A program made the translations under genes and the position numbers. Below, one piece after another: positions 32,784 to 64,000 of a DNA stretch of 64,000 bases. The DNA comes from Methanobacteriota archaeon (GTDB taxonomy: Archaea; Thermoplasmatota; Poseidoniia; MGIII; CG-Epi1): NCBI GenBank assembly GCA_002687355.1, contig NYZZ01000041.1, forward strand, positions 38,156-102,155, read 5' to 3'. Each line of letters opens with the position of its first letter. Positions within the stretch are counted from its first letter, which is position 1. The notes under the pieces were generated by a model. The model saw only the letters and a list, made by a program, of their open reading frames with translations. It ran no database searches and was not told the DNA's origin.

Positions 32784-34244
32784 CTAATCTGTAGCTACAG
32801 AAGGCTTTCTAGCCCAGAAAATAAATCCGGATACGCACGCTATCAATATAACTCCACCAATGATTAACAACACAGGCAGACCTTTCTTTTCTTCGGGCGT
32901 CATAGCCGAGACAGTAGCCACGTCGGTACTTCCCTTCGTCCAGTTACCATCGTACGCTACGATGCTATACTCAACCTCTGTAGAATCATCTACATTGAGA
33001 ACAGCAAAAGATTCTCCGCTCCCGATTGTACATATATCTCCATCACACACCTCTCCATTTATGGTCATAGGCTTGTAGGACCAATTATAGGATATATTTG
33101 AGATATGGGAAGCTTCGCGATAGATGACCAGAGCTGCAGTCAGTTCACCACCATCATCCTCGATAACAGCATTAATCTTCACTTTTCCATTTTCAGAAGT
33201 TGGTTTCTCTAGCTCAATCGACGGTGGGCTTGCTTCTTCATCGTAAGCAGTACCTTCGGGCGTCGCCGAATTCAGTGCTCTGGGGGACCCGTCATTTCCG
33301 TCTCCTCCATCTTCATTACCACTTCCATCCCCCCTACTAGAACTAGTGTCATCCATGTCATAAACAACAGCAACCGGGTACACGTTCCGGGGGTTAATAG
33401 GAACTCGAATAGGTTCCTCTATTCCATCTCTAACGATAGTGCTAGGGACCAACCAGTCAGCATAGATTTCATTCAGAGATTCACCTGGCTGAAGTTCAAA
33501 ATCTTTCCCCTCAAGAGCATATTCCCTGAACACATTGTGCATGGTTACGTCAGCATCATTGACGGTACTCCAAGCTGTAACATGATCCTCTACCATGAAA
33601 ATGTGAAGCCGTCCGTTGAGAGTATCATCTGGCAATTCCATGCTCATTGGATCGAAATTTTCGTTGTTCTCAATGTATTCTATATCTACCCTGACTGAAA
33701 AGCGCTGCCCGTCATAAATGGAGGCGACCTTAAGATTCACCATCTTAATCTGGTCCCTTTCTCCAGAATCTTGGAGTGCGCTTTTCATTTCCTCATAATT
33801 TGCACTCGGAGCATTCGCGCTATGTGAGCCTCCCATCTCTACATATCCACCATCAGCGTCTAGAGATGGAGTACCAGAGACTCCAGGCTGGTAATATTTC
33901 ATCCGATCCCGCGACTCATCAGTCATAAGATCATCCTCACCGCCTCCGTTTAGTTCATGGAATTCTATGTAGTTCCAAGGGTTCCCCTCTGTGTATCCTT
34001 CTTCCTCCCAGAGTCGCGTTGCGTCGGGATGCGCCACACTCATGCAAGGAGGACAGGAAAGCCCAGTGAAGTGCTCAAGTATAGGCCGATGGGTCCATTG
34101 ATATGGGTGTTCAGAATTCTCGGTTTCAACACCCTGAATCTCAGCCGCCAAGCTGGAAGTAAATGATGTGCAGAACGAAAGTGCAATCGCTATTGCTACG
34201 GCAACCTTAACCGACTCGAACACATTTCTGTACCCAGCAGGCAA
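32784..34244 (-). CDS. secreted/membrane-anchored protein with CPPC thioredoxin-like motif, acidic linker, Ig-like region and C-terminal TM anchor
   Basis: A signal peptide, then HFTGLSCPPCMSVAHPD, a Gly/Asp linker DGSGNEDGGDGNDGS, and a C-terminal helix LPVLLIIGGVILIACVSGFIFW. Low-GC island. Confidence 0.5.
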   Translation of the reverse strand: MPAGYRNVFESVKVAVAIAIALSFCTSFTSSLAAEIQGVETENSEHPYQWTHRPILEHFTGLSCPPCMSVAHPDATRLWEEEGYTEGNPWNYIEFHELNGGGEDDLMTDESRDRMKYYQPGVSGTPSLDADGGYVEMGGSHSANAPSANYEEMKSALQDSGERDQIKMVNLKVASIYDGQRFSVRVDIEYIENNENFDPMSMELPDDTLNGRLHIFMVEDHVTAWSTVNDADVTMHNVFREYALEGKDFELQPGESLNEIYADWLVPSTIVRDGIEEPIRVPINPRNVYPVAVVYDMDDTSSSRGDGSGNEDGGDGNDGSPRALNSATPEGTAYDEEASPPSIELEKPTSENGKVKINAVIEDDGGELTAALVIYREASHISNISYNWSYKPMTINGEVCDGDICTIGSGESFAVLNVDDSTEVEYSIVAYDGNWTKGSTDVATVSAMTPEEKKGLPVLLIIGGVILIACVSGFIFWARKPSVATD

Positions 34245-48684: not shown

Positions 48685-50397
48685 CTAATCCAGATACGTG
48701 TTAAGCACGGGCTTCTCGTCGAGGTGGAAGAACATGTAGAGCGCCCACCAAGTGATGATGTCCAGCGAATTGACCATGTTCTCTTCTCCCGTAGCGTTGT
48801 TGCCGTAAGGACGGGCGGGGGCGGAATTGTCCATCCACTCAGTCATCTCCTCGAGCGTGTCGCAGGTCTGATGGTAGCACCAGTAGCCGTCAACCAGCCC
48901 CCCGTAGCCGAGGGTGATGGTGCCCAGGTTGTCTTGGAAGCTAGCGTGGTCGCTGCGCGCTGTCGTATCTTCGTAGACGATGACTTCGGGGCGCTCCTGC
49001 CGCAGCCAGACATCATATTTCCAAGTCGCGGCATCGTCGCTCTCGTTGCCGACCAGCACGTCCATCTGCGCCGAGACGTTGATGGCGTCAGCGCCGACCC
49101 AGCGCGTCAGATGCACCATTCCGGGCTGGTTGACTGCGTTGTGGTCTAGCGACGGACCGATGTAGAGTCTCAATGGCCACACCTCCGAATCTTTGGGATA
49201 GCCGCTCTCTGCCGGTTGTGGATCAGGGTCACCGTGCGGGGCACCGCCTCCGCCAGGCCAGTTGACTCCCGCCATGTCCAAGTTAACGTAGTTGGTAACG
49301 GTGACCTCGGGATGGTCGCCCTTGACGTAGTATTCGGTCCAGTAGTCGCTGCCGCGCTTGCCTCCCTCCTCGCCCGACCAGAGACAGAAAACCATCGTGC
49401 GGCGACTGGCGAAATCGCTCATTGCTTCGGCGACGTTCAGCACCATACTTGTGCCGGCAGTGTTGTCGTAAGCGCCGACGCGGGTGCCGTAGCTGCGGCT
49501 GCCAGTAACGTGCGGATCGAGAAGACCCGCGTTGGTCGGCGGGGCGACGTCGAAATGCGCGCCGAAGACCAACCACTCGTTAGGATAGAGTGTCCCATAG
49601 CGGTAGCCGCAGATGTTGTATGCCTCCGGGTTTTGCATGCCTAAGATATCGGTGAATTGGAAGCGGTGCGCCTGAACATCCAGCCCGTACGATTCCAGCT
49701 CGCCAATCAGGAACTGCGCTGCGTCCTCGTAGGCAGAGTTGCCCTGCCCCGCCCAACGGTCGAGGTATCCTTCAGCAAGGTCTGGTGGGAGCCCTGGAGT
49801 ATCATCAGTGAGCATGTGAATGGTGTTAAACACTGAACGCCCATCAATGACGCCCGTCGCGTAGCGACTGCCTTCATCCAAAGTATACGCGGGAGATTGT
49901 AGCCGCATGACCGGCACGCGTAATGGGATGACGCGGCCGCCGTCCTCGCTTGAGGCATTGATGGCGTCAAACCCTGTTTCTTGCGGGACACGCTCGACCA
50001 TTGTCACGGCAGGCATTCCCCGTACAACCCACATCTCCCAACTTTCACCTGGGTCGCGTGCCGGCCAGTGCTGCCGGCCGCTCTCGCTGATGAACAGGTA
50101 GACTGAATCAATGCGGGGCGGCGCAAGCATTTGCAACTGCACAGTCTCGCCCAGCGCTAGGTCGATAACGGTCGAATTCTGAATGTAACCGGTCGCCGGG
50201 TTTAGCAGCAGGTACGGCACGTAGACTGCCATCGGCTGTCCCGCAGTCAGCACTAGTGGCTGAAACTCGCCTCCCGTCAATACTTGCGGCGCGACCGTCA
50301 GATCCCCGGCTGAGAGAGGCTGTATTTCCTCGCTATCAAGGCAGCCCGCCAGCGCAGGAAGCAGGAACAGGAATGCAGCTGCGCAAGGCTTCAGCAT
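48685..50397 (-). CDS. secreted M28-family metallopeptidase (aminopeptidase-like), probable lipoprotein
   Basis: Signal peptide ending in a lipobox (LLPALAGC). M28 zinc-ligand blocks FGAHFD..., GAYDNTAGTSMVLNVAE, WSGEEGG. Start set at MLKPCAAAF; the ORF is open to 50457. Confidence 0.65.
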   Translation of the reverse strand: MLKPCAAAFLFLLPALAGCLDSEEIQPLSAGDLTVAPQVLTGGEFQPLVLTAGQPMAVYVPYLLLNPATGYIQNSTVIDLALGETVQLQMLAPPRIDSVYLFISESGRQHWPARDPGESWEMWVVRGMPAVTMVERVPQETGFDAINASSEDGGRVIPLRVPVMRLQSPAYTLDEGSRYATGVIDGRSVFNTIHMLTDDTPGLPPDLAEGYLDRWAGQGNSAYEDAAQFLIGELESYGLDVQAHRFQFTDILGMQNPEAYNICGYRYGTLYPNEWLVFGAHFDVAPPTNAGLLDPHVTGSRSYGTRVGAYDNTAGTSMVLNVAEAMSDFASRRTMVFCLWSGEEGGKRGSDYWTEYYVKGDHPEVTVTNYVNLDMAGVNWPGGGGAPHGDPDPQPAESGYPKDSEVWPLRLYIGPSLDHNAVNQPGMVHLTRWVGADAINVSAQMDVLVGNESDDAATWKYDVWLRQERPEVIVYEDTTARSDHASFQDNLGTITLGYGGLVDGYWCYHQTCDTLEEMTEWMDNSAPARPYGNNATGEENMVNSLDIITWWALYMFFHLDEKPVLNTYLD

Positions 50398-57623: not shown

Positions 57624-58400
57624 TCAGGTATCGTATCTCTTTGGCAAACCAAGCAGGTCCCCTATTCCTTTGAACGTTCCTGTTACAGATTCTATCAAAG
57701 AAACGCCATATTTTTCCGAAACAAAATGGGCTATGACCAAGTATACCGACGCCCCGATCACTTGTAGTGGAAAACTTTCTGGTATCCCCATAAATCCAAT
57801 CTCACCAAACTCATGTATAGATTTCATCACAAGATAAGCTGCAAATCCAATTAGTAATGAGGTAGACAGATTGAACATGAATCTGATATCAAGATTCTTA
57901 GTGGAAGCAAAGAGTGCATATCCAATTATTACGGCCAACACAATCCCAATGAATAGACCCGTAATGGCATCACCACTTTCCGTTCCTGCACCTATGAAAA
58001 TGACGGTTTCAACACCTTCTCTCCAAACTGAAATGAAGGCTAGTAGGCCAATTCCAAATGCCTCACGCGTTTCAATCGCCTTTTCTGCTTTATTTTCTAG
58101 AACTTCTCTAGTCGCGTGTCCTATAACGTGCAGAATGACAGTGGTAATCAGTACTGCGGCAATTAGATACAGCACACCTTCAAAAAGCTCCTCATTCGTC
58201 TTTGAGAACTCACCAACAATGACCTCGAAGGCTTGCCAAGTTAACACGCTAGCTACAAGCGCGAGTAAGACTCCACCCCAGACCCATTTGGCCATAAATT
58301 TTCTATCAGTTCTATACAGTAGACTAACCAATACACCTATTATAAGTGCAGCTTCGAGAGCTTCTCGAAATCCAATCAGAAAGCCCGCTTCCATGTCCAT
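57624..58400 (-). CDS. FTR1/EfeU-family high-affinity iron permease
   Basis: Two RExxE motifs in TM helices (FREALEAAL, WREGVETVIF). 258 aa. Markedly lower GC than flanking genes. Confidence 0.7.
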   Translation of the reverse strand: MDMEAGFLIGFREALEAALIIGVLVSLLYRTDRKFMAKWVWGGVLLALVASVLTWQAFEVIVGEFSKTNEELFEGVLYLIAAVLITTVILHVIGHATREVLENKAEKAIETREAFGIGLLAFISVWREGVETVIFIGAGTESGDAITGLFIGIVLAVIIGYALFASTKNLDIRFMFNLSTSLLIGFAAYLVMKSIHEFGEIGFMGIPESFPLQVIGASVYLVIAHFVSEKYGVSLIESVTGTFKGIGDLLGLPKRYDT

Positions 58401-58432
58401 TTTTCACATCTCTATTACTTAGGGCAGTCCAA

Positions 58433-58448
58433 TTTAGGTCAACCTAAA
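58433..58448. promoter_or_regulatory. operator-like palindrome 1, TTTAGG-tcaa-CCTAAA
   Basis: A perfect 6-bp inverted repeat with 4-bp spacer in the ftr1/dtxR divergent intergenic region. It resembles DtxR/IdeR box half-sites (TTAGG...CCTAA). Confidence 0.55.
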
Positions 58449-58466
58449 AACCATCTCTATATAAAA

Positions 58467-58482
58467 TTTAGGCCACCCTAAA
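58467..58482. promoter_or_regulatory. operator-like palindrome 2, TTTAGG-ccac-CCTAAA (adjacent TATA-like tatataaaat)
   Basis: A second identical-arm palindrome 34 bp from the first, immediately flanked by an AT-rich TATA-like element. Confidence 0.55.
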
Positions 58483-58513
58483 TCATATTGTATATAATAC
58501 GATAAATGAGTTA

Positions 58514-58529
58514 TTTAGGGTTTCCTAAA
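58514..58529. promoter_or_regulatory. operator-like palindrome 3, TTTAGG-gttt-CCTAAA
   Basis: A third copy 47 bp from the second and ~30 bp upstream of the dtxR ATG. The position is consistent with autoregulation. Confidence 0.55.
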
Positions 58530-58559
58530 TTTTTTATACGACTCCATCTGTAATCTGCC

Positions 58560-59219
58560 ATGGCAGTTATGGATGCTCTATCCGAAAGCGCTGAGATGAT
58601 GATTAAGAATATCCATGATTTATCCTTGGATGGAAAGCGTGTTAGAACCTCCGATTTGGCGCAGAAAACTGATTTGAAGCCAGCATCTGTAACTGAGATG
58701 ATTCAACGTTTAGGCGAGATAGGGCTTGTTGATTATCAGGCCTACCACGGCGTTTTTCTTACTAAACAGGGGCAACATGTAGCGGATGTAATAGGATATA
58801 GATTCAACATACTTCAACGATTTCTAACTGAAATATTGGGTGTGGAAAAAGAAGAAGCCGCCGAGGTTGCTTGTAGAATGGAACACATTCTAACCCGAGA
58901 TGTCGAGACTCGTTTGAGTAATTTCTTAGGTGTTGATTCAGATAACGCTTCAGAGATTATCAATAAGAAAATAAGCGTTGATTCCGAACCCGAACCTGAT
59001 TTCCTTCCATTAACTAATTTTAGAGAAGGCAAAACAGGCAAGGTACGCATAATTCTAGAAAAGAGCGAGCTGACAGAAACTTTGGAACAGGCCGGTCTGT
59101 CTCCAGGTCGTACGATTATAGTCAAGAAGGTTAACGACAAATGCTATGATGTCGAAACGGAGAATGCCTCATTATCTTTGGACAGAGATCTAGCAGCCAA
59201 GATAATAGTCCAGAATTAA
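58560..59219 (+). CDS. DtxR/MntR-family metal-dependent transcriptional repressor with C-terminal FeoA (SH3-like) domain
   Basis: An HTH plus the metal/dimerisation region (…FNILQRFLTEILGVEKEEAAEVACRMEHILTRD…), and a C-terminal FeoA-like GKTGKVRIILEKSE...GRTIIVKK. Divergent from ftr1. Low GC. Confidence 0.8.
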   Translation: MAVMDALSESAEMMIKNIHDLSLDGKRVRTSDLAQKTDLKPASVTEMIQRLGEIGLVDYQAYHGVFLTKQGQHVADVIGYRFNILQRFLTEILGVEKEEAAEVACRMEHILTRDVETRLSNFLGVDSDNASEIINKKISVDSEPEPDFLPLTNFREGKTGKVRIILEKSELTETLEQAGLSPGRTIIVKKVNDKCYDVETENASLSLDRDLAAKIIVQN

Positions 59220-59557
59220 TGGCTTCCAAAGGCGTTCTCTATCTGTTGCTAAGCGGGCCTGCCAACACAGCACACGCGCTGGAATTGCTACGCCTGGCTG
59301 AGTCTCAGGCCGGCTTGGGCGACCACGGTGTTGCGGTGCTGCTGCAGGGTGACGGTGTCGAGTGGCTGGCTGAAGGAGCGAGCAGCGAGGCGCAGGCCGC
59401 ACTACAGGTAGTCTCAGAGCTGGGTGGCGGTGTGTTCGCTTGCTCCCACTCGCTTGCCGAGCGAGGCGTTGTGCCGGCACTGCAGGTACGCGAGGCGCAC
59501 GCGCCACAGCGGATTTCGCAAGCAGTCGCGCACGGCTGGCAGGTTATCTCTGGCTAG
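59219..59557 (+). CDS. DsrE/DsrF/TusD-like (YchN fold) small protein
   Basis: 112 aa with MASKGVLYLLLSGPANTAHALE...VFACSHSLAERG, the pattern and conserved Cys of DsrE-like sulfur-relay proteins. Its start overlaps the dtxR stop (TAATG). Confidence 0.5.
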   Translation: MASKGVLYLLLSGPANTAHALELLRLAESQAGLGDHGVAVLLQGDGVEWLAEGASSEAQAALQVVSELGGGVFACSHSLAERGVVPALQVREAHAPQRISQAVAHGWQVISG

Positions 59558-59964: not shown

Positions 59965-60558
59965 TCAACCGCTGACAACACGTACTTCGTCGCGCTCCAG
60001 CTCACTCCGTAGCTCCGCTGCATCCTCGACCGAGAGCTGGCACCGCAGCGTGAATCCCTCATACATTCCTTCGATACCACACGCCTCAACTGCAATTGGG
60101 CCTTCCGCACCACCCGCCGGCGCTAGCGTGACGTTGACCAGCCCGTCGACCGGGATACCGCCGGTGGTCGCCCGTCCTGCGAATCGGTCCAGCAGCTCCC
60201 CCGCGGTCGGCGTGCCACCGTCTAGTACCAGCACGTCGCCATAGAGCATCAGCCATCGCCCCGGATGGTCAACAGCTGGCCAGGCACGCGAAGCAGGCAG
60301 TGGCGGTCGTTTGTCTTCTGACATGCCCGCCCAGCGTCCACGTTCGCCGCTCCAGCCTTCGTCACTAGCCCCGCCATCACTGGAAAACACGTCGGCGGGC
60401 ACAGCCAGTAGGGCAACAGCTGGCACCCAGCGTTTTCCGTCCCAGATCAGTGCCGAGTGCGACAGCTTGCCGCTGTCCAGGTCGGCGCGCAGCCTAGAGG
60501 CGGGAATCGGCCCGTAGGTTTCGTCGCCGACTTTGACAGGGTATTCGGGCTCGCTCAC
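59965..60558 (-). CDS. hypothetical protein with N-terminal DUF4339-like (GYF-like) domain
   Basis: YGPIPASRLRADLDSGKLSHSALIWDGKRWVPA matches the DUF4339 pattern (G-P-x...G-x-L...W.x.G..W.P). The rest is Gly/Ala-rich with no recognisable motif. Confidence 0.45.
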   Translation of the reverse strand: MSEPEYPVKVGDETYGPIPASRLRADLDSGKLSHSALIWDGKRWVPAVALLAVPADVFSSDGGASDEGWSGERGRWAGMSEDKRPPLPASRAWPAVDHPGRWLMLYGDVLVLDGGTPTAGELLDRFAGRATTGGIPVDGLVNVTLAPAGGAEGPIAVEACGIEGMYEGFTLRCQLSVEDAAELRSELERDEVRVVSG

Positions 60559-62837
60559 GCCTGGTTCGAGTCGTAGCGGTCGCCGTCGGTCCAGATAGTC
60601 TGGTGCCAGTAGGTACTGGTGAAGGTAGCGTCGGTGACGGTGGCGCCATTGAAATTGGCGAACTTGAGGTCCGCACTATACAGGTAGGCATCCGTGAGAT
60701 CCGCCTGATACAGGCTGACATCCGTGAGGTCCGCACTAAACAGGCTGGCATCCGTCAGGGTCGCATAAGCCAGGTAGGCATTCGTGAGGTCTGCATAATC
60801 TAGGTTGGCATCCGTCAGGTTCGCATACTGCAGGTAGGCATCCGTCAGGTCCGCATTCTTCAGGTAGGCATCCGTTAGCTTTGCATTCCTCAGGTCGGCA
60901 TCCGTGAGATCCGCATAGGCCAGATAGGCATCCGTCAGGTCCGCATACCCTAGGTAGGCATCCGTCAGGTCCGCATACTGCAGGTTGGCGCTCGCCAGGT
61001 TCGCATCATCAAGGTCGGCATCCGTCAGGTCCGCACCGTACAGGTTGGCCTCCGTCAGGTTTGCATACTTCAGGTGGGCACCTGTCAGGTGGGCACCCTC
61101 CAGGTCGGCCTCCGCCAAGTTCGCATGCTCCAGGTTGGCCTCCCTCAGGTCCGCATACTTCAGCCAGGCATCCGTCAGGTCCGCATCCTCTAGGTGGGCA
61201 TTTGACAAATCTGCACCCCCCAGGTCGGCCCCTGTCAGGTTGGCTGCCGTTAGGTCAGCTCCCACCAAGTAGGCCTCCGTCAGGTCCGCACCCACCAAGT
61301 AGGCCTCCGTCAGGTCCGCATACTGTATGTCGGCGCCCGTCAGGTTCGCATCCTCCAGGTAGGCATTCTCCAGGTTCGCATACTGCAGCTTCGCATACCT
61401 CAGTTTGGCCTCCGTCAGGTTCGCATCATTCAGGGTGGCGCCCGTCAGGTCCGCATACGCCAGGTAGGCACTCGTCAGGTCCGCATACCATAGGTTGGCA
61501 TTCGTCAGGTCCGCATCCTCCAGGTTGGCGCTCGTCAGGTTCGCCTGATACAGAGTGGCATCCGTCAGGTCCGCATCCACCAGGTAGGTGTTCGTCAACT
61601 TCGCATCCCCCAGCATAGCATTCGTCAGGTCCGCATCCTCCAGGTAGGCATTCGTCAGGTCGGCATTCATCAGCCAGGCCTCCGTCAGGTCCGTATACTG
61701 TAGGTTGGCACCATGCAGGTCCGCCCGATACAGGTCCGTATCCGTGAGGTCCGCATGCTTCAGGTTGGCACCTGTGAGGTCCGCATACTGCATGTCGGCG
61801 CCCGCCAGGTTGGCGGATATCAAGTAAGCTCCTGCCAGGTCCGCCTCATACAGGTTGGCATCCGTCAGGTCCGCACCCGCCAGGTACGCACCCGCCAGAT
61901 CCGCATCCTCCAGGTTGGCATCCGTCAGGTCCGCACAATACAGGATGGCTTCCGTCAGGTCCGCCTCATACAGGGCGGCTCCCGTCAGGTCTGCATACGC
62001 CAAGACGGCTTCCGTCAGGTTCGCCTCATACAGGTTCGCAAACCTCAGTTTAGCATCTATCAGGTCAGTCCACTTCAGGTCCGCACCCGTCAGGTACGCA
62101 CCTGACAGGTCCGCACCATACAGGTTGGCATCCGTCAGGTTCGCGCCACTCAGGTTGGCGTTGCGCAGGTCAATCCACCTCAGGTCCTTCCCACTCAAGT
62201 TCATTCCTCCCATCTCGGCATCCTCGCACTTGCCGTACGGCACCAGATAGCAGGAGTTGACGTTAGCGAGGTCCTCCTCCAGCGCTTGGATATCGGCTGC
62301 GTGCTCCGCTTCGAGCAGCGCGATTTGCGTGGTGTGCTGGTCGAGCATCTGGTTGATATTCGTGATCGCAGTCTCGAGTGTCGTGACCCTCGCATCAAGA
62401 GCTGCGAGCTGTGTCTCGACTGCATTCAGGTCGGCTGTGACCGTGCTGATGTTTGTTGCGGCTGCGTTAAGGTCGTCTGCGCCCGCGCTCAGGTTTGCCT
62501 CCAGTGCCTCTATCAGCAGCAGGTCGGCATCGAGGATATCGATGATGGTATCGAGTTCCTCCTGTAGCTCGGCAATCTGCGCGTTGGTTGTGTTGTCCTC
62601 GCTCTCGTTCACGAGCGCGTCCATACGCGTGTCAAGAGCCTCGATGAGTGCAAGGTCGGTATCAAGGATGTCGGAGATTGCCTTGAGATCCTCGTTCAGC
62701 GTGGCGATGTCCGCGCTGTTCTGGCTGGTACCTTCTTCCAGCTTACTGGTGTCAACCGGTTCAGCTCCGTCCAGACAGCCGATTAGTGCCGTGGTCAGCA
62801 GCATTAGTGCTAACGGCAGGGTTGCGATGCGGGTCAT
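60555..62837 (-). CDS. secreted pentapeptide-repeat lipoprotein: lipobox signal peptide, ~180-aa coiled-coil with internal repeats, ~105 consecutive A(D/N)LT(D/E/G)A(N/Y)L pentapeptide repeats
   Basis: MTRIATLPLALMLLTTALIGC lipobox. Triplicated DL.AI.DILD.DL.LIEAL coiled-coil units. Then ~520 aa of uninterrupted pentapeptide repeats (…ANLTDANLYGADLSGAYLTGADLKW…). The ORF is open to 62891. Confidence 0.8.
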   Translation of the reverse strand: MTRIATLPLALMLLTTALIGCLDGAEPVDTSKLEEGTSQNSADIATLNEDLKAISDILDTDLALIEALDTRMDALVNESEDNTTNAQIAELQEELDTIIDILDADLLLIEALEANLSAGADDLNAAATNISTVTADLNAVETQLAALDARVTTLETAITNINQMLDQHTTQIALLEAEHAADIQALEEDLANVNSCYLVPYGKCEDAEMGGMNLSGKDLRWIDLRNANLSGANLTDANLYGADLSGAYLTGADLKWTDLIDAKLRFANLYEANLTEAVLAYADLTGAALYEADLTEAILYCADLTDANLEDADLAGAYLAGADLTDANLYEADLAGAYLISANLAGADMQYADLTGANLKHADLTDTDLYRADLHGANLQYTDLTEAWLMNADLTNAYLEDADLTNAMLGDAKLTNTYLVDADLTDATLYQANLTSANLEDADLTNANLWYADLTSAYLAYADLTGATLNDANLTEAKLRYAKLQYANLENAYLEDANLTGADIQYADLTEAYLVGADLTEAYLVGADLTAANLTGADLGGADLSNAHLEDADLTDAWLKYADLREANLEHANLAEADLEGAHLTGAHLKYANLTEANLYGADLTDADLDDANLASANLQYADLTDAYLGYADLTDAYLAYADLTDADLRNAKLTDAYLKNADLTDAYLQYANLTDANLDYADLTNAYLAYATLTDASLFSADLTDVSLYQADLTDAYLYSADLKFANFNGATVTDATFTSTYWHQTIWTDGDRYDSNQA
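60630..62190. repeat. intragenic tandem DNA repeats (15-nt unit with 30/60-nt higher-order periodicity) encoding the pentapeptide array
   Basis: Recurring ggcatccgtcaggtccgcata(c/t)... units are visible every 15-60 nt on the plus strand from ~60.65 to 62.2 kb. Confidence 0.8.
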
Positions 62838-62954
62838 ACGTGGGCATTTACGCTGGTCTAAATTAGTATAATCTATAGGGACGACCACCACGCCGGGTTG
62901 GAGTTGTAGCGCTCGCTGTTGTTCCAGACGCTGGGAGCTAGTATGTGCTGAGTT

Positions 62955-64000
62955 TCAGCTGCCGAAAATACGTTCGCGGTAGATGTAGCCCAGTGCCCCA
63001 AAGGTCGACGCCACTACTGCCACAATAAGTGCGATTGACACCCAGTCGCGTCCATCGTCACTCACGGCCACGGTCAGTGGTTTGACTTGCTGGCTCTCTT
63101 CCTTCTCCTCTACAACTACATTTCCAGAATCAGCGACTACGATAACAGTATGCTGTCCCGACGGGAGGTTGCTCCAGGTCGCCTCAACTACGTGTGTGTT
63201 CTCGATGCCAGCCACTAACGTAGAGCCGTCAACAGTAACGTTGGCAATCAGGTGCGCTGTGTCAGCCAAGTCGTAGTAAAATGCTACACTGAAGTTCTGA
63301 GTGATGTTCTCGTTGAACAGCTTCAGTTCAGCACTGATTAGTATGCTATCACCTTCAGTCGGCGCATCGTTCGAGAAATTGATTTGGGCGATTCCCAAAT
63401 TAGGCCGCAGCTGTTTGCCTACCATCACGGTGCGCACCGCCACATCTGAGTTGCCGGCGCGGTCAGTGACTGTTAGCAGCACGCTGTAGCCCTCATCGCG
63501 TGCAGCATCGTAAATATGGTCTGGCTGCATTCCACTGCCATTGACACCGTCACCAAAATCCCAATGGAACGTTAGCTGTTCGTGCGTGTCATAGTTGTCT
63601 AGAGTTAGGTTGGCGTTGAAAGTAGTAACTATATTCTCAACAGCAGACTCATTGAAGCTTTCACTTCCGGCCTCGTAGTAGGTGAAGGCAGGCGCGGGGC
63701 GAGTAATGTCGTTGACGTGGACAGTCTGCACGACGCTAGCAGAGTTTCCAGCTGCGTCGGTGGTGCTCAGCGAGACCTGATAGTCACCCGGGTCGAGATA
63801 CTGCTTGTTGACCACTTCGCCACTATTGGTGGTGTTGTCGCCAAAATCCCACTCCCAACTGCTGATGTACGATTGACCATCGCTTGATCCAGAGCCGTTA
63901 AACACCAGCGTCGAGCCGGTCGCTTCGTCGTCGGAGAACAACTCATCGACATTGGTGCCGTTGTATGGCTCGCCCGGATCGGTCGAGGCGATAGTGCCCT
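62955..64000 (-). CDS. PKD-domain surface protein with C-terminal TM anchor (5'-truncated by window edge)
   Basis: WDFGDNTT... and WDFGDGVNG PKD signatures. A C-terminal helix WVSIALIVAVVASTFGALGYIY. The reading frame stays open upstream of the TTG at 63941 to the window end (manual translation …GTIASTDPGEPYNGTNVDELFSDDEATG…). Confidence 0.7.
   Translation of the reverse strand, partial: GTIASTDPGEPYNGTNVDELFSDDEATGSTLVFNGSGSSDGQSYISSWEWDFGDNTTNSGEVVNKQYLDPGDYQVSLSTTDAAGNSASVVQTVHVNDITRPAPAFTYYEAGSESFNESAVENIVTTFNANLTLDNYDTHEQLTFHWDFGDGVNGSGMQPDHIYDAARDEGYSVLLTVTDRAGNSDVAVRTVMVGKQLRPNLGIAQINFSNDAPTEGDSILISAELKLFNENITQNFSVAFYYDLADTAHLIANVTVDGSTLVAGIENTHVVEATWSNLPSGQHTVIVVADSGNVVVEEKEESQQVKPLTVAVSDDGRDWVSIALIVAVVASTFGALGYIYRERIFGS

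What the first reader, a model, noticed from the sequence alone, without database searches (positions are those of the whole stretch)
60555..62891. Secreted lipoprotein with ~105 tandem pentapeptide repeats and a repetitive coiled-coil stalk
Pentapeptide-repeat proteins (Qnr/MfpA-like) are typically cytoplasmic DNA mimics. This one has a lipobox signal peptide (…TTALIGC) and a triplicated coiled-coil segment. It then carries ~520 aa of uninterrupted A(D/N)LT(D/E)A(N/Y)L repeats, predicted to form a ~25-turn quadrilateral beta-helix rod >100 Å long. It neighbours a PKD-domain anchored surface protein. The coding DNA is itself a long 15/30/60-nt tandem array, a likely hotspot for repeat-number variation, so the rod length could be phase-variable.
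Basis: seen in the sequence. Interest (0 to 1): 0.6.

Follow-up and report, generated by a model that had tools for sequence, protein, structure and literature searches.

The report
Membrane-anchored pentapeptide-repeat rod of marine archaea
An abundant, uncultured ocean archaeon (Marine Group II) encodes an exported, probably lipid-anchored protein made of a coiled-coil stalk and an unusually long, rigid, acidic beta-helix rod; its relatives carry rods of very different lengths, which is a new variant of a known protein fold rather than a new kind of system.

Summary
The gene at window 60555-62837 (- strand) most likely starts at the ATG at 62837 and encodes 760 aa. It has a Sec-type signal peptide ending in a lipobox (LIGC), a heptad coiled-coil stalk of about 155 aa, and a Cys-x7-Cys N-cap. 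These are followed by 107 pentapeptides in unbroken register (about 27 coils, about 13 nm) and a conserved aromatic C-cap.

The organism is Candidatus Poseidoniia (Marine Group II). Nine other contigs, from different samples and several assembly sources, reproduce the array with 1-4 mismatches, so it is not an assembly artefact.

The gene belongs to a narrow, apparently undescribed Poseidoniia family. Members share the caps but differ in anchor (lipobox or N-terminal transmembrane segment), stalk modules and rod length (about 16 to 112 pentapeptides). Near-identical strains differ by in-frame indels of 10-21 aa; here the alleles are 760 and 780 aa, a difference of one full coil.

"Phase variation" is not supported, since the DNA repeat units are only about 65% identical. 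Function is inferred: a surface spacer or adhesin-like fibril.

Verdict: new variant of a known kind, moderate interest.

The parts
62858..62868 (-). TATA-like promoter element (TACTAATTTAG), centred 26 nt upstream of the ATG.
   Evidence: The motif sits at the same position upstream of family genes in L013 and L012, and as TACTGATATAG in L030, L034 and L038. Promoter function is inferred from the archaeal promoter consensus.
60555..62837 (-). Complete coding sequence of the pentapeptide-repeat protein: 760 aa plus the stop codon at 60555-60557.
   Evidence: Pfam PF00805 E=1.3e-152.
62778..62837 (-). Signal peptide, aa 1-20 (MTRIATLPLALMLLTTALIG): Arg3 in the n-region, a hydrophobic core, and no twin-arginine motif, so Sec-type.
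   Evidence: Kyte-Doolittle 12-residue maximum of 2.32; pattern scan. No dedicated signal-peptide predictor was available.
62775..62786 (-). Lipobox L-I-G-C, with Cys21 as the predicted lipidated first residue of the mature protein.
   Evidence: Matches [LVI][ASTVI][GAS]C. Conserved as LAGC or LTGC in relatives. A second lipobox protein in the window, a Peptidase_M28 at 48685-50397, carries LAGC followed by LD.
62256..62720 (-). Coiled-coil stalk, aa 40-194. It includes two duplicated 44-aa modules at 62583-62714 and 62451-62582.
   Evidence: AlphaFold2 helices 31-77 and 85-191. Heptad periodicity reached by 3 of 2000 shuffles. Module duplication reached by 0 of 500 shuffles. Net charge of aa 22-197 (linker, stalk and start of the N-cap) is -35.
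62211..62255 (-). N-cap, aa 195-209 (SCYLVPYGKCEDAEM), with the conserved pair Cys196/Cys204, a putative disulfide staple.
   Evidence: The motif SCxLxP[YF]GxC is present in every family member examined and recurs, without the leading Ser, before each repeat module in P0061 and P0099. The disulfide is inferred.
60606..62210 (-). Pentapeptide-repeat array: 107 units in unbroken register (aa 210-744), about 26.75 coils of a quadrilateral beta-helix. Net charge of aa 198-745 is -75.
   Evidence: AlphaFold2 beta-helix with pLDDT 70-95 over most of the region. Foldseek matches HetL, Np275/276 (TM-score 0.78, rmsd 2.9 A), Qnr, MfpA and Rfr23/32.
61879..61880 (-). Site of the 60-nt (20-aa, one-coil) insertion/deletion polymorphism. 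The 780-aa allele carries an extra GADLTDANLYEADLAGAYL(A/T) here.
   Evidence: The 760-aa allele is on the window, L001, L004, L005 and L010. The 780-aa allele is on L002, L003, L006, L007 and L008. The extra unit is 56/60 identical to the next unit, with a 46-nt exact repeat.
61261..61320 (-). The longest exact direct repeat inside this allele: a 30-nt unit in tandem (ADLTEAYLVG twice).
60558..60605 (-). C-terminal cap or tip, aa 745-760 (HQTIWTDGDRYDSNQA), preceded by YW.
   Evidence: YWHQTIWTDGxRYDSNQA is conserved across the family. AlphaFold2 confidence is low here.
59965..60558 (-). Downstream 197-aa gene whose start overlaps the stop of the repeat-protein gene by 4 nt. It has a weak GYF_2-like N-terminus and no signal peptide.
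   Evidence: GYF_2 E=0.013, below threshold. Found only in Poseidoniia and 68-99% identical among hits. Syntenic in most loci.
62955..64000 (-). Upstream neighbour: the 3' part of a 778-aa surface protein (CarboxypepD_reg, PKD, CARDB) with a C-terminal membrane anchor.
62889..62950 (-). Degenerate relic of the 3' end (C-cap coding part) of a lost tandem paralogue, lying in the spacer upstream of the gene.
   Evidence: Local alignment to the gene's own 3' end scores 47; 0 of 500 shuffles reach it. Tandem paralogues exist in L013 and L021.

Best explanation
The gene encodes an exported cell-surface protein of a Marine Group II archaeon (Candidatus Poseidoniia).

**Proposed mechanism, step by step.**
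1. A Sec signal peptide takes the protein across the membrane.
2. The lipobox cysteine (Cys21) is lipidated, in archaea with thioether-linked archaeol, and becomes the N-terminus that tethers the protein to the outer face of the membrane.
3. A heptad coiled coil of about 155 residues forms a stalk roughly 15-22 nm long, probably as a dimer or trimer.
4. The stalk carries a rigid, highly acidic beta-helix of about 27 coils (about 13 nm). Its N-terminal end is stapled by a Cys-x7-Cys loop and its far end carries a conserved aromatic cap (YWHQTIWTDG-RYDSNQA).
5. The rod most likely acts as a stiff extender that projects the conserved tip, or sets a fixed distance at the cell surface. This would make it a spacer or adhesin-like fibril.
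6. Rod length evolves by unequal recombination between the degenerate 30/60-nt repeats. This gives lineages with about 16 to 112 pentapeptides and strain-level alleles differing by 10-21 aa.

**What is shown and what is inferred.**
- Shown here: domain order, motif conservation, predicted fold, family distribution and length polymorphism.
- Inferred: export, lipidation, disulfide bond, oligomerisation and the spacer/adhesin function.
For: **Architecture.**
- Pfam PF00805 at E=1.3e-152 and 107 pentapeptides in unbroken register.
- AlphaFold2 predicts long helices followed by a beta-helix. Foldseek places the rod with solved pentapeptide-repeat structures.
- The stalk shows heptad periodicity.

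**Export.**
- A canonical lipobox follows a positively charged, hydrophobic N-terminus.
- The lipobox cysteine is conserved as LIGC, LAGC or LTGC in relatives. One sub-lineage replaces it with an N-terminal hydrophobic anchor (MAEGNPTQTALVAGGLAVVLLLNVFF). Two interchangeable membrane anchors argue that the N-terminus functions as a tether.
- A second protein in the window, a Peptidase_M28, has the same LAGC-LD signal. A TSP3-repeat lipoprotein sits in the same locus of another species.
- The N-cap cysteine pair is conserved in all members. Cysteine pairs at helix ends are a stated feature of secreted pentapeptide-repeat proteins (PMC12864828), and Rfr32 and At2g44920 have disulfide-stabilised caps (PMC8145042).
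- Archaeal lipobox proteins are lipidated with archaeol, are prevalent in Euryarchaeota, and use the Sec pathway outside halobacteria (PMC12462473).

**The array is real.** Nine other contigs from ENA, NCBI and JGI differ from the window by 1-4 mismatches over the array apart from the 60-nt indel; L008 additionally diverges at its 5' end. The longest exact repeat (30-46 nt) is short compared with the k-mer sizes suggested by contig names such as k119 and k127.

**Length variation.**
- Cap-to-cap distances are 79, 159, 239, 318, 538 and 558 aa, plus intermediates.
- Alleles of 760/780 aa occur here, and 588/599/609/619 aa in another species next to an identical or near-identical downstream 193-aa gene.

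**Narrow family.** The stalk plus N-cap finds only 18 proteins at E<=1e-3 among 1.84 billion representatives. The named hits are all Poseidoniia, Thermoplasmatota or Marine Group III.
Against: - No dedicated signal-peptide or lipoprotein predictor could be run, and lipidation and cleavage are untested.
- The known archaeal lipidation enzyme AliA has "several gaps in Thermoplasmata" (PMC12462473). Its presence in this genome was not checked.
- The structure model is of moderate confidence: mean pLDDT 69.5, low around aa 470-520, at 630-670 and in the C-terminal cap. It is a monomer, so oligomerisation is a guess.
- Nothing here tests binding, spacing or adhesion, and there are no expression data.
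- The co-oriented downstream gene has no export signal, so the operon gives no functional support.
- Several of the short family members sit on 1-3 kb contigs. Their arrays could be collapsed by assembly, so the lower end of the length range is less certain.
Confidence: 0.6

Rival explanations
1. The protein is exported but not lipid-modified. The N-terminal segment would act as an ordinary cleavable signal peptide or an uncleaved signal anchor, so the protein would be released or held by a transmembrane helix. The rest of the architecture is as in the best explanation.
For: A sister lineage of the family uses a plain hydrophobic N-terminus without a lipobox. AliA is reported to be patchy in Thermoplasmata (PMC12462473). 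No predictor was run.
Against: The lipobox cysteine and its -3 to -1 context are conserved across diverged members as LIGC, LAGC and LTGC. The same motif recurs on other exported proteins of this lineage.
Confidence: 0.2
2. It is a rapidly switching (phase-variable or antigenically variable) surface protein. Rod length would change at high frequency by slipped-strand mispairing, for example to evade viruses that use it as a receptor.
For: In-frame length alleles occur among near-identical strains in at least two species, always at near-perfect tandem duplicates. The locus between the conserved flanks varies in gene content and holds tandem paralogues and a paralogue relic. L008 has a mosaic 5' end.
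Against: The repeat units average 65% identity and the longest exact repeat in this allele is 30 nt. Only two alleles are seen among the ten copies compared, and the rest of the array differs by 1-4 nt. No frame-shifting on/off tract is present.
Confidence: 0.1
3. It is a cytoplasmic DNA mimic of the Qnr/MfpA type that protects or regulates a topoisomerase.
For: The rod is strongly acidic, with a net charge of -75. Foldseek and NCBIfam detect similarity to Qnr, MfpA and AlbG.
Against: Scores are below the family cut-offs: Qnr 171 against 240, MfpA 130 against 360. The protein also has a signal peptide with lipobox, a conserved cysteine-stapled cap and a stalk. Its rod is about three times longer than any gyrase-binding member.
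Confidence: 0.03
4. The long array is an assembly artefact, either an expansion or a collapse of a repeat.
For: Several contigs end inside or at the edge of this gene (L005, L008, L010, L011). One MAG copy (L012) carries ambiguous bases and a frameshift in a much shorter array.
Against: Ten contigs from different samples and several assembly sources give the same array with 1-4 mismatches. The repeats are too degenerate to confuse large-k assemblers.
Confidence: 0.02

Closest known systems
Secreted pentapeptide-repeat proteins of the YjbI type (Caulobacter crescentus YjbI/PerA; PMC12864828)
   Same: Both have an N-terminal secretion signal, a quadrilateral beta-helix with charged faces, cysteines stapling a helix end, and a location in the cell envelope.
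   Different: YjbI is 183 aa with no stalk and no lipobox. It has cysteine pairs at both ends and lies in the lipopolysaccharide layer of a Gram-negative outer membrane. The protein here is archaeal, 760 aa, has a coiled-coil stalk, about 27 coils, and a cysteine pair only at the N-cap.
Lumenal or luminal pentapeptide-repeat domains: Rfr32 and Rfr23 (Cyanothece), At2g44920 (Arabidopsis thylakoid lumen), SV2 luminal domain (PMC8145042)
   Same: They are extracytoplasmic and share the fold. Rfr32 has a signal peptide. Rfr32 and At2g44920 have disulfide-stabilised caps. Foldseek hits 2o6w and 2g0y.
   Different: They have only about 4.5-5.5 coils (Rfr32, At2g44920, SV2), no coiled-coil stalk and no lipid anchor, and their functions are unknown or different (SV2 is a toxin receptor).
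DotG/IcmE central repeat region of the Legionella type IVB secretion system (PMC6761968)
   Same: It is a long (about 500 aa) pentapeptide-repeat tract in the cell envelope whose length differs between species and even between strains through intragenic recombination. NCBIfam aligns aa 265-764 of the 778-aa ORF to it.
   Different: The score is 63.6 against a cut-off of 750. There is no TrbI/VirB10 domain and no secretion-system genes nearby, and the context is bacterial.
Qnr, MfpA and AlbG cytoplasmic DNA mimics
   Same: Same fold and an acidic surface.
   Different: These are cytoplasmic proteins of about 180-220 aa that form C-terminal dimers sized to fit gyrase. Family score cut-offs are not met here.
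Fibrillar adhesins with anchor-stalk-extender-tip layout, such as trimeric autotransporter adhesins and repeat-extended RTX adhesins (comparison from general knowledge, analogy only)
   Same: The layout is a membrane anchor, a coiled-coil stalk, a repetitive rigid extender of variable length and a conserved distal tip.
   Different: There is no sequence or fold relationship, and no binding activity is known for this protein.

Membership tests
Pentapeptide-repeat protein superfamily (Pfam PF00805) | At least eight contiguous pentapeptides with the consensus A(D/N)LXX. | tested here: met
   107 contiguous units, with Ala in 98 of 107 at i-2 and Leu in 101 of 107 at i.
Pentapeptide-repeat protein superfamily (Pfam PF00805) | Profile score above Pfam's gathering threshold. 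| tested here: met
   494.9 bits against 20.2, E=1.3e-152.
Pentapeptide-repeat protein superfamily (Pfam PF00805) | [quoted passage not shown] | tested here: met
   Prediction only. AlphaFold2 gives one short strand per pentapeptide over aa ~203-720. Foldseek probability is 1.00 to HetL, Np275/276 (TM-score 0.78, rmsd 2.9 A), Qnr and MfpA.
Lipobox lipoproteins (archaeal, AliA-dependent) | Lipobox [L/V/I][A/S/T/V/I][G/A/S]C after a positively charged n-region and a hydrophobic h-region. | tested here: met
   MTRIATLPLALMLLTTA-LIGC with Arg3. Motif definition from PMC12462473.
Lipobox lipoproteins (archaeal, AliA-dependent) | The cysteine is conserved in orthologues. | tested here: met
   LIGC, LAGC or LTGC in the lipobox lineage. 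A sister lineage has a transmembrane-type N-terminus instead.
Lipobox lipoproteins (archaeal, AliA-dependent) | Thioether archaeol on the cysteine, and signal-peptide cleavage. | not testable with these tools
   Needs biochemistry: Triton X-114 partitioning and mass spectrometry.
Lipobox lipoproteins (archaeal, AliA-dependent) | The lipidation enzyme AliA (arCOG02177) is present in the genome. | not tested
   Only a 64-kb window was available. The paper notes gaps in Thermoplasmata.
Qnr/MfpA topoisomerase-protecting proteins | NCBIfam equivalog score above the cut-off. | tested here: not met
   Qnr 171.3 against 240. MfpA 130.3 against 360. All Qnr subfamilies are far below their cut-offs.
Qnr/MfpA topoisomerase-protecting proteins | Cytoplasmic, about 180-220 aa, no export signal. 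| tested here: not met
   760 aa with a signal peptide, lipobox and stalk.
HetL (NCBIfam NF047416) and Alr5209 (NF052603) equivalogs | Whole-protein score above the cut-off together with matching architecture (a cytoplasmic cyanobacterial protein of about 110-240 aa). | tested here: not met
   The summed scores exceed the cut-offs (332.9 against 260; 300.8 against 125). However, they are spread over 5 and 8 separate stretches of a protein three to seven times longer than the profiles. Architecture and taxon do not fit, so this is a repeat-summing artefact.
YjbI-type secreted pentapeptide-repeat proteins | N-terminal secretion signal. | tested here: met
YjbI-type secreted pentapeptide-repeat proteins | Cysteine pairs at both ends of the beta-helix, and a small single-domain protein. 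| tested here: not met
   The cysteines are at positions 21, 196, 204 and 301 only, with no C-terminal pair. The protein is 760 aa with a stalk.
DotG/IcmE | NCBIfam NF033900 cut-off and a C-terminal TrbI/VirB10 domain. | tested here: not met
   63.6 against 750. No TrbI domain was found in the Pfam scan.

The most novel reading that the evidence does not exclude
The family would be a lineage-specific, length-tunable extracellular strut of Marine Group II archaea. A lipid- or helix-anchored coiled coil would carry a pentapeptide-repeat beta-helix of adjustable length, set by the number of repeat units, that determines how far a conserved aromatic tip is held from the membrane. It could act as a ruler for the envelope or surface-layer spacing, or as the shaft of an attachment fibril for particles. 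That would be the first structural (not DNA-mimic or regulatory) role shown for this fold, and the first defined surface appendage of this uncultured group.
Probability: 0.25. Interest if true: 0.65.

Novelty: new variant of a known kind. Interest (0 to 1): 0.45.

Why it matters
- **Ecology.** Marine Group II archaea are among the most abundant archaea in the surface ocean (general knowledge). They have never been cultured, so their cell surface is essentially unknown. A conserved, syntenic gene family for a surface fibril of about 30 nm gives a concrete target for metaproteomics and cryo-tomography.
- **The fold.** Functions of pentapeptide-repeat proteins outside topoisomerase protection are still mostly unknown (PMC8145042). 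A capped rod found at very different lengths in related genomes would point to a purely structural use.
- **Protein engineering.** Such a natural stiff rod of about 13 nm is of interest for design. The closest structural hits include designed solenoids.
- **Annotation.** The repeat-summed scores would make automated pipelines call this protein "HetL" or "Alr5209 family", and similar long-array proteins in public records are already named "PipB2" by their sources. Such names would be wrong here.

Tried and rejected
1. **GTG start at 62891 (778 aa).** Rejected in favour of the ATG at 62837. The GTG lies upstream of the conserved TATA-like box, and gene callers use the ATG.
2. **HetL or Alr5209 naming from NCBIfam.** Rejected as an artefact of summing many repeat stretches.
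3. **Weak stalk matches.** Cbp1 adhesin, archaeal SMC-related protein, NPV_P10 and DUF7310 are all far below their cut-offs and reflect coiled-coil composition.
4. **Alignment-based metagenome scan.** It failed because no conserved stretch was available. The single-sequence scan worked.
5. **Downstream 197-aa protein.**
   - Pfam finds only GYF_2, at E=0.013.
   - AlphaFold2 with 20 homologues gave mean pLDDT 52.8, too poor for a fold search.
   - Its role stays unknown.
6. **Literature.** No paper holds both "pentapeptide repeat" and "Marine Group II". A search on Poseidoniales surface proteins returned only irrelevant papers. No supplementary files of the archaeal lipoprotein paper are held, so lipoprotein prevalence and AliA presence in Poseidoniia could not be read.
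7. **Other pentapeptide-repeat genes in the window.** None. The only other signal is the antisense frame of this gene.
8. **Bacterial promoter and terminator scan.** Uninformative for an archaeon.
9. **Whole-coil quantisation of rod length.** Considered as a rule and weakened. Most cap-to-cap lengths differ by multiples of 20 aa, but 10-aa and 21-aa indels and half-coil lengths also occur.

Full report
**1. What is in the sequence**

The biologically likely start is the ATG at 62837, giving 760 aa that begin MTRIATLPLALMLLTTALIGC. Independent gene calls on related contigs all use this start. A TATA-like element, TACTAATTTAG at 62858-62868, is centred 26 nt upstream of it and is conserved at the same position in relatives. 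This fits a short-leader or leaderless archaeal transcript.

Pfam assigns the Pentapeptide family at E=1.3e-152, with 19 stretches. Written in groups of five, the register runs without a single break from aa 210 to 744. That is 107 pentapeptides, with Ala in 98 of 107 units at the i-2 position and Leu in 101 of 107 at the central position. A two-pentapeptide alternation (xYADL-TDAxL) explains why Tandem Repeats Finder reports a 30-nt period: 49.8 copies with 69% matches at 60667-62159. Only one such gene lies in the window.

**2. Organism and reliability of the assembly**

The neighbouring MutL is identical to proteins named Candidatus Poseidoniia (Marine Group II) in public records. Contigs that carry this identical MutL, from ENA, NCBI and JGI, show the same gene order:
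- Ile-tRNA synthetase
- a 778-aa PKD/CarboxypepD_reg surface protein
- the pentapeptide-repeat gene
- a 197-aa gene
- thioredoxin
- DsrE
- an iron-dependent repressor
- FTR1
- MutL

Over the repeat gene these contigs differ from the window by 1-4 mismatches in 2283 nt, apart from one indel and a mosaic 5' end in L008. The longest exact repeat in the window allele is 30 nt, and it is 46 nt in the longer allele. Contig names such as k119 and k127 suggest larger k-mer sizes than that, so a collapse or expansion artefact is very unlikely. Several contigs do break at this gene (L005, L008, L010, L011), and one MAG copy (L012) carries ambiguous bases, a frameshift and a much shorter array. Repeat-related assembly trouble therefore exists elsewhere in the family.

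**3. Anatomy of the protein**

- **aa 1-20: signal peptide.** It has Arg3, a hydrophobic core and no twin-arginine motif.
- **aa 18-21: lipobox LIGC.** This matches the published motif [L/V/I][A/S/T/V/I][G/A/S]C (PMC12462473).
- **aa 40-194: acidic alpha-helical stalk.**
  - AlphaFold2 gives helices at 31-77 and 85-191.
  - Hydrophobic residues show 3.5-residue periodicity, reached by only 3 of 2000 shuffles. A regular a/d pattern runs through about 15 heptads across aa 89-193.
  - Two 44-aa modules (aa 42-85 and 86-129) are clear duplicates, with 0 of 500 shuffles reaching the score. A third segment is only weakly similar.
- **aa 195-209: N-cap SCYLVPYGKCEDAEM** with Cys196 and Cys204.
- **aa 210-744: the repeat rod.**
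  - At four repeats per coil this is 26.75 coils. At the roughly 4.8 A rise per coil of solved structures (established knowledge of the fold), that is about 128 A.
  - The model is confident over most of the rod, with pLDDT 70-95 for aa 200-450 and 540-630. It is weaker around aa 470-520, at 630-670 and in the C-terminal cap; mean pLDDT is 69.5.
  - Foldseek against the PDB returns only pentapeptide-repeat structures at the top: HetL, designed beta1 solenoids, Np275/276 (TM-score 0.78, rmsd 2.9 A), QnrB1, MfpA, AlbG, Rfr23 and Rfr32.
- **aa 745-760: C-terminal tip HQTIWTDGDRYDSNQA**, preceded by YW.

The mature protein has a net charge of about -112. It contains 14 N-x-S/T sites; the 10 that lie in the rod all occupy the outward-facing i-1 position. 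Glycosylation is possible if the protein is outside the cell, but this is an inference.

**4. Evidence for export and anchoring**

No signal-peptide predictor was available, so the case rests on motifs and comparison.
1. The lipobox cysteine is kept as LIGC, LAGC or LTGC in diverged relatives.
2. A sister lineage of the same family replaces it with a different hydrophobic N-terminus, MAEGNPTQTALVAGGLAVVLLLNVFF. The stalk, caps and rod are unchanged. Two interchangeable membrane-targeting devices on one architecture argue that the N-terminus functions as a tether.
3. Other exported proteins of this lineage use the same signal. A Peptidase_M28 in the window begins MLKPCAAAFLFLLPALAGCLD (48685-50397). 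A TSP3-repeat protein in the same locus of another species has SGCL.
4. The Cys-x7-Cys N-cap is present in every member examined. Cysteine pairs at helix ends are described for secreted pentapeptide-repeat proteins (PMC12864828), and disulfide-stabilised caps for the lumenal Rfr32 and At2g44920 (PMC8145042).
5. Archaeal lipobox proteins are now known to carry thioether-linked archaeol added in an AliA/AliB-dependent way. They are predicted to be common in Euryarchaeota and Sec-dependent outside halobacteria (PMC12462473).

Whether this genome has AliA was not tested; the paper notes gaps in Thermoplasmata.

**5. The family**

A search with the N-terminal 234 aa found 11 proteins. All that carry names are Poseidoniia, Thermoplasmatota or "Methanobacteriota archaeon" fragments. 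An exhaustive HMMER search of 1.84 billion representatives with the stalk plus N-cap found only 18 proteins at E<=1e-3 and 8 at E<=1e-10. One cluster member is named Marine Group III.

Complete genes recovered from metagenome and genome contigs share the N-cap and C-cap but differ in three ways:
- **Anchor.** Either a lipobox or a transmembrane-type N-terminus.
- **Stalk.** One member lacks a module, some have an 11-aa insertion, and two carry a globular insert of about 100 aa.
- **Rod length.** Cap-to-cap distances are 79, 98, 106, 109, 119, 149, 159, 238-239, 318, 537-538 and 558 aa, which is about 16 to 112 pentapeptides.

The 428-aa form is identical in three separate assemblies, two of them on contigs of 140 kb and 277 kb, and a fourth contig carries a copy cut by its end. 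Short rods are therefore real in some lineages. The shortest forms lie on contigs of 1-3 kb and could be collapsed.

Many lengths differ by multiples of 20 aa, a whole coil, but half-coil values also occur. The capped rod also behaves as a module. Two other lipobox proteins contain two capped rods in tandem: P0061 behind a cysteine-rich domain, and P0099 behind a collagen-like and coiled-coil stalk.

**6. Length polymorphism**

Among contigs with an identical MutL there are two alleles.
- 760 aa: window, L001, L004, L005 and L010.
- 780 aa: L002, L003, L006, L007 and L008.

They differ by a single 60-nt unit encoding GADLTDANLYEADLAGAYL(A/T). That unit is 56/60 identical to its neighbour.

In another species, next to an identical or near-identical downstream 193-aa gene, four alleles occur: 588, 599, 609 and 619 aa. 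They differ by one to three copies of the 10-aa unit YADLTDANLQ and by the presence or absence of a 21-aa segment.

It is not phase variation in the usual sense, for four reasons:
- units average 65% identity at the DNA level;
- all changes are in frame;
- only near-perfect adjacent duplicates vary;
- the remainder of the array is almost invariant.

**7. Locus dynamics**

The flanks are conserved across species: TruD or a tRNA synthetase upstream, and the 197-aa gene, thioredoxin, DsrE and the rest through to MutL downstream. The content between them changes:
- one repeat gene;
- a repeat gene plus a TSP3 lipoprotein;
- tandem repeat-gene paralogues (L013, L021);
- here, a PKD protein plus the repeat gene.

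The 117-nt spacer upstream of the gene in the window still holds a relic of about 60 nt from the 3' end of a family gene at 62889-62950, with 0 of 500 shuffles reaching its alignment score. A tandem paralogue was therefore lost here. L008 has a 5' end resembling another paralogue type, which suggests gene conversion.

**8. The downstream gene**

The 197-aa ORF at 59965-60558 overlaps the stop codon by 4 nt. It is restricted to Poseidoniia and is far better conserved than the repeat protein, at 68-99% identity among hits. It has no export signal. Its only family hint is GYF_2 at E=0.013, and its structure model is poor, with mean pLDDT 52.8. In one species another gene is inserted between the two, so tight coupling is not universal. 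Its role is unknown.

**9. Most likely mechanism**

The best-supported reading is an exported, membrane-tethered fibril. It would consist of a lipid (or helix) anchor, an oligomeric coiled-coil stalk of roughly 15-22 nm, and a stiff, polyanionic and possibly glycosylated beta-helical rod of about 13 nm that ends in a conserved aromatic tip.

The pattern of conserved ends around a freely varying middle is what one expects of an extender or spacer whose length matters more than its sequence. In this it resembles the extender regions of fibrillar adhesins (analogy from general knowledge) and the length-variable repeat tract of DotG (PMC6761968).

Architecture, conservation and polymorphism are shown. 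Export, lipidation, the disulfide, oligomerisation and the spacer or adhesin role are inferred. Rival readings are listed separately with their evidence:
- exported but not lipidated;
- fast-switching surface antigen;
- cytoplasmic DNA mimic;
- assembly artefact.

**10. Comparison with what is known, and novelty**

Membership of the pentapeptide-repeat superfamily is met on all testable criteria. Membership of Qnr/MfpA, DotG, HetL/Alr5209 and YjbI-type families is not. The HetL and Alr5209 scores pass their cut-offs only because many repeat stretches are summed.

Exported pentapeptide-repeat proteins are known, and arrays of hundreds of residues are common in metagenomes. The full-length search returned 7513 hits at E<=1e-10, many of them 1000-1300 aa. 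By a crude count, the uninterrupted run here (105) was the longest among the 120 best hits, the next being 96.

What appears new is the combination and its setting. This is an archaeal, lipobox- or helix-anchored, coiled-coil-mounted, cysteine-capped rod family with lineage-specific lengths, confined to Poseidoniia. No paper in the searchable library links these repeats with Marine Group II.

I rate it a new variant of a known kind, with moderate interest (0.45). It is structurally striking and useful for an uncultured but globally abundant group, but it has no functional evidence yet.

Noticed in passing
window 62889-62950 (- strand): The spacer between the PKD gene and the repeat gene contains a degenerate relic of about 60 nt from the 3' end (C-cap coding part) of a family gene. 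This implies a lost tandem paralogue. Its alignment score is 47, and 0 of 500 shuffles reach it.
   Followed up: yes
window 59965-60558 (- strand): A 197-aa gene overlaps the repeat gene's stop codon by 4 nt. It occurs only in Poseidoniia, is very conserved (68-99% identity among hits), has no signal peptide and has only a sub-threshold GYF_2 hit. AlphaFold2 confidence is too low to classify it.
   Followed up: partly
window 48685-50397 (- strand): A Peptidase_M28 protein carries the same kind of lipobox signal (MLKPCAAAFLFLLPALAGCLD). This suggests that lipobox-type export is used repeatedly in this archaeon.
   Followed up: partly
L008 1-190, compared with window 62650-62837: One otherwise near-identical strain has a divergent 5' end in the signal peptide and first stalk residues, with 43 mismatches. 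It resembles the L014/L021 paralogue type, which suggests gene conversion between paralogues.
   Followed up: no
L013 3634-4075; L021 100-193: Some genomes carry two family genes in tandem. A second family N-terminus starts right after the 759-aa gene in L013, and a family C-cap precedes the gene in L021.
   Followed up: partly
L034 3099-4964, L035 3069-4964, L037 1787-3682: In another Poseidoniia species a cysteine-rich lipobox protein of 621-631 aa with TSP3 (thrombospondin type 3) repeats is inserted between the repeat gene and the conserved downstream gene. The locus looks like a variable surface-protein site.
   Followed up: no
proteins P0061 and P0099: Two other lipobox proteins contain two complete capped repeat modules in tandem. 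P0099 places them behind collagen-like Gly-x-y repeats and a coiled coil. The capped rod therefore behaves as a reusable domain.
   Followed up: no
window 32784-34244 (- strand): A 486-aa ORF with no Pfam family lies in the lowest-GC stretch of the window (GC 0.447 against about 0.58 elsewhere). It sits next to a 463-aa AhpC/Redoxin-domain protein.
   Followed up: no
window 57624-59557 and related loci: The flank is conserved and holds iron- and redox-related genes: an FTR1 permease, a DtxR-type repressor with a FeoA domain, DsrE and thioredoxin. In other species the flank instead carries a CDGSH protein in place of the repressor, or a transferrin-like ABC transporter where FTR1 lies here. No link to the repeat gene is evident.
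   Followed up: no
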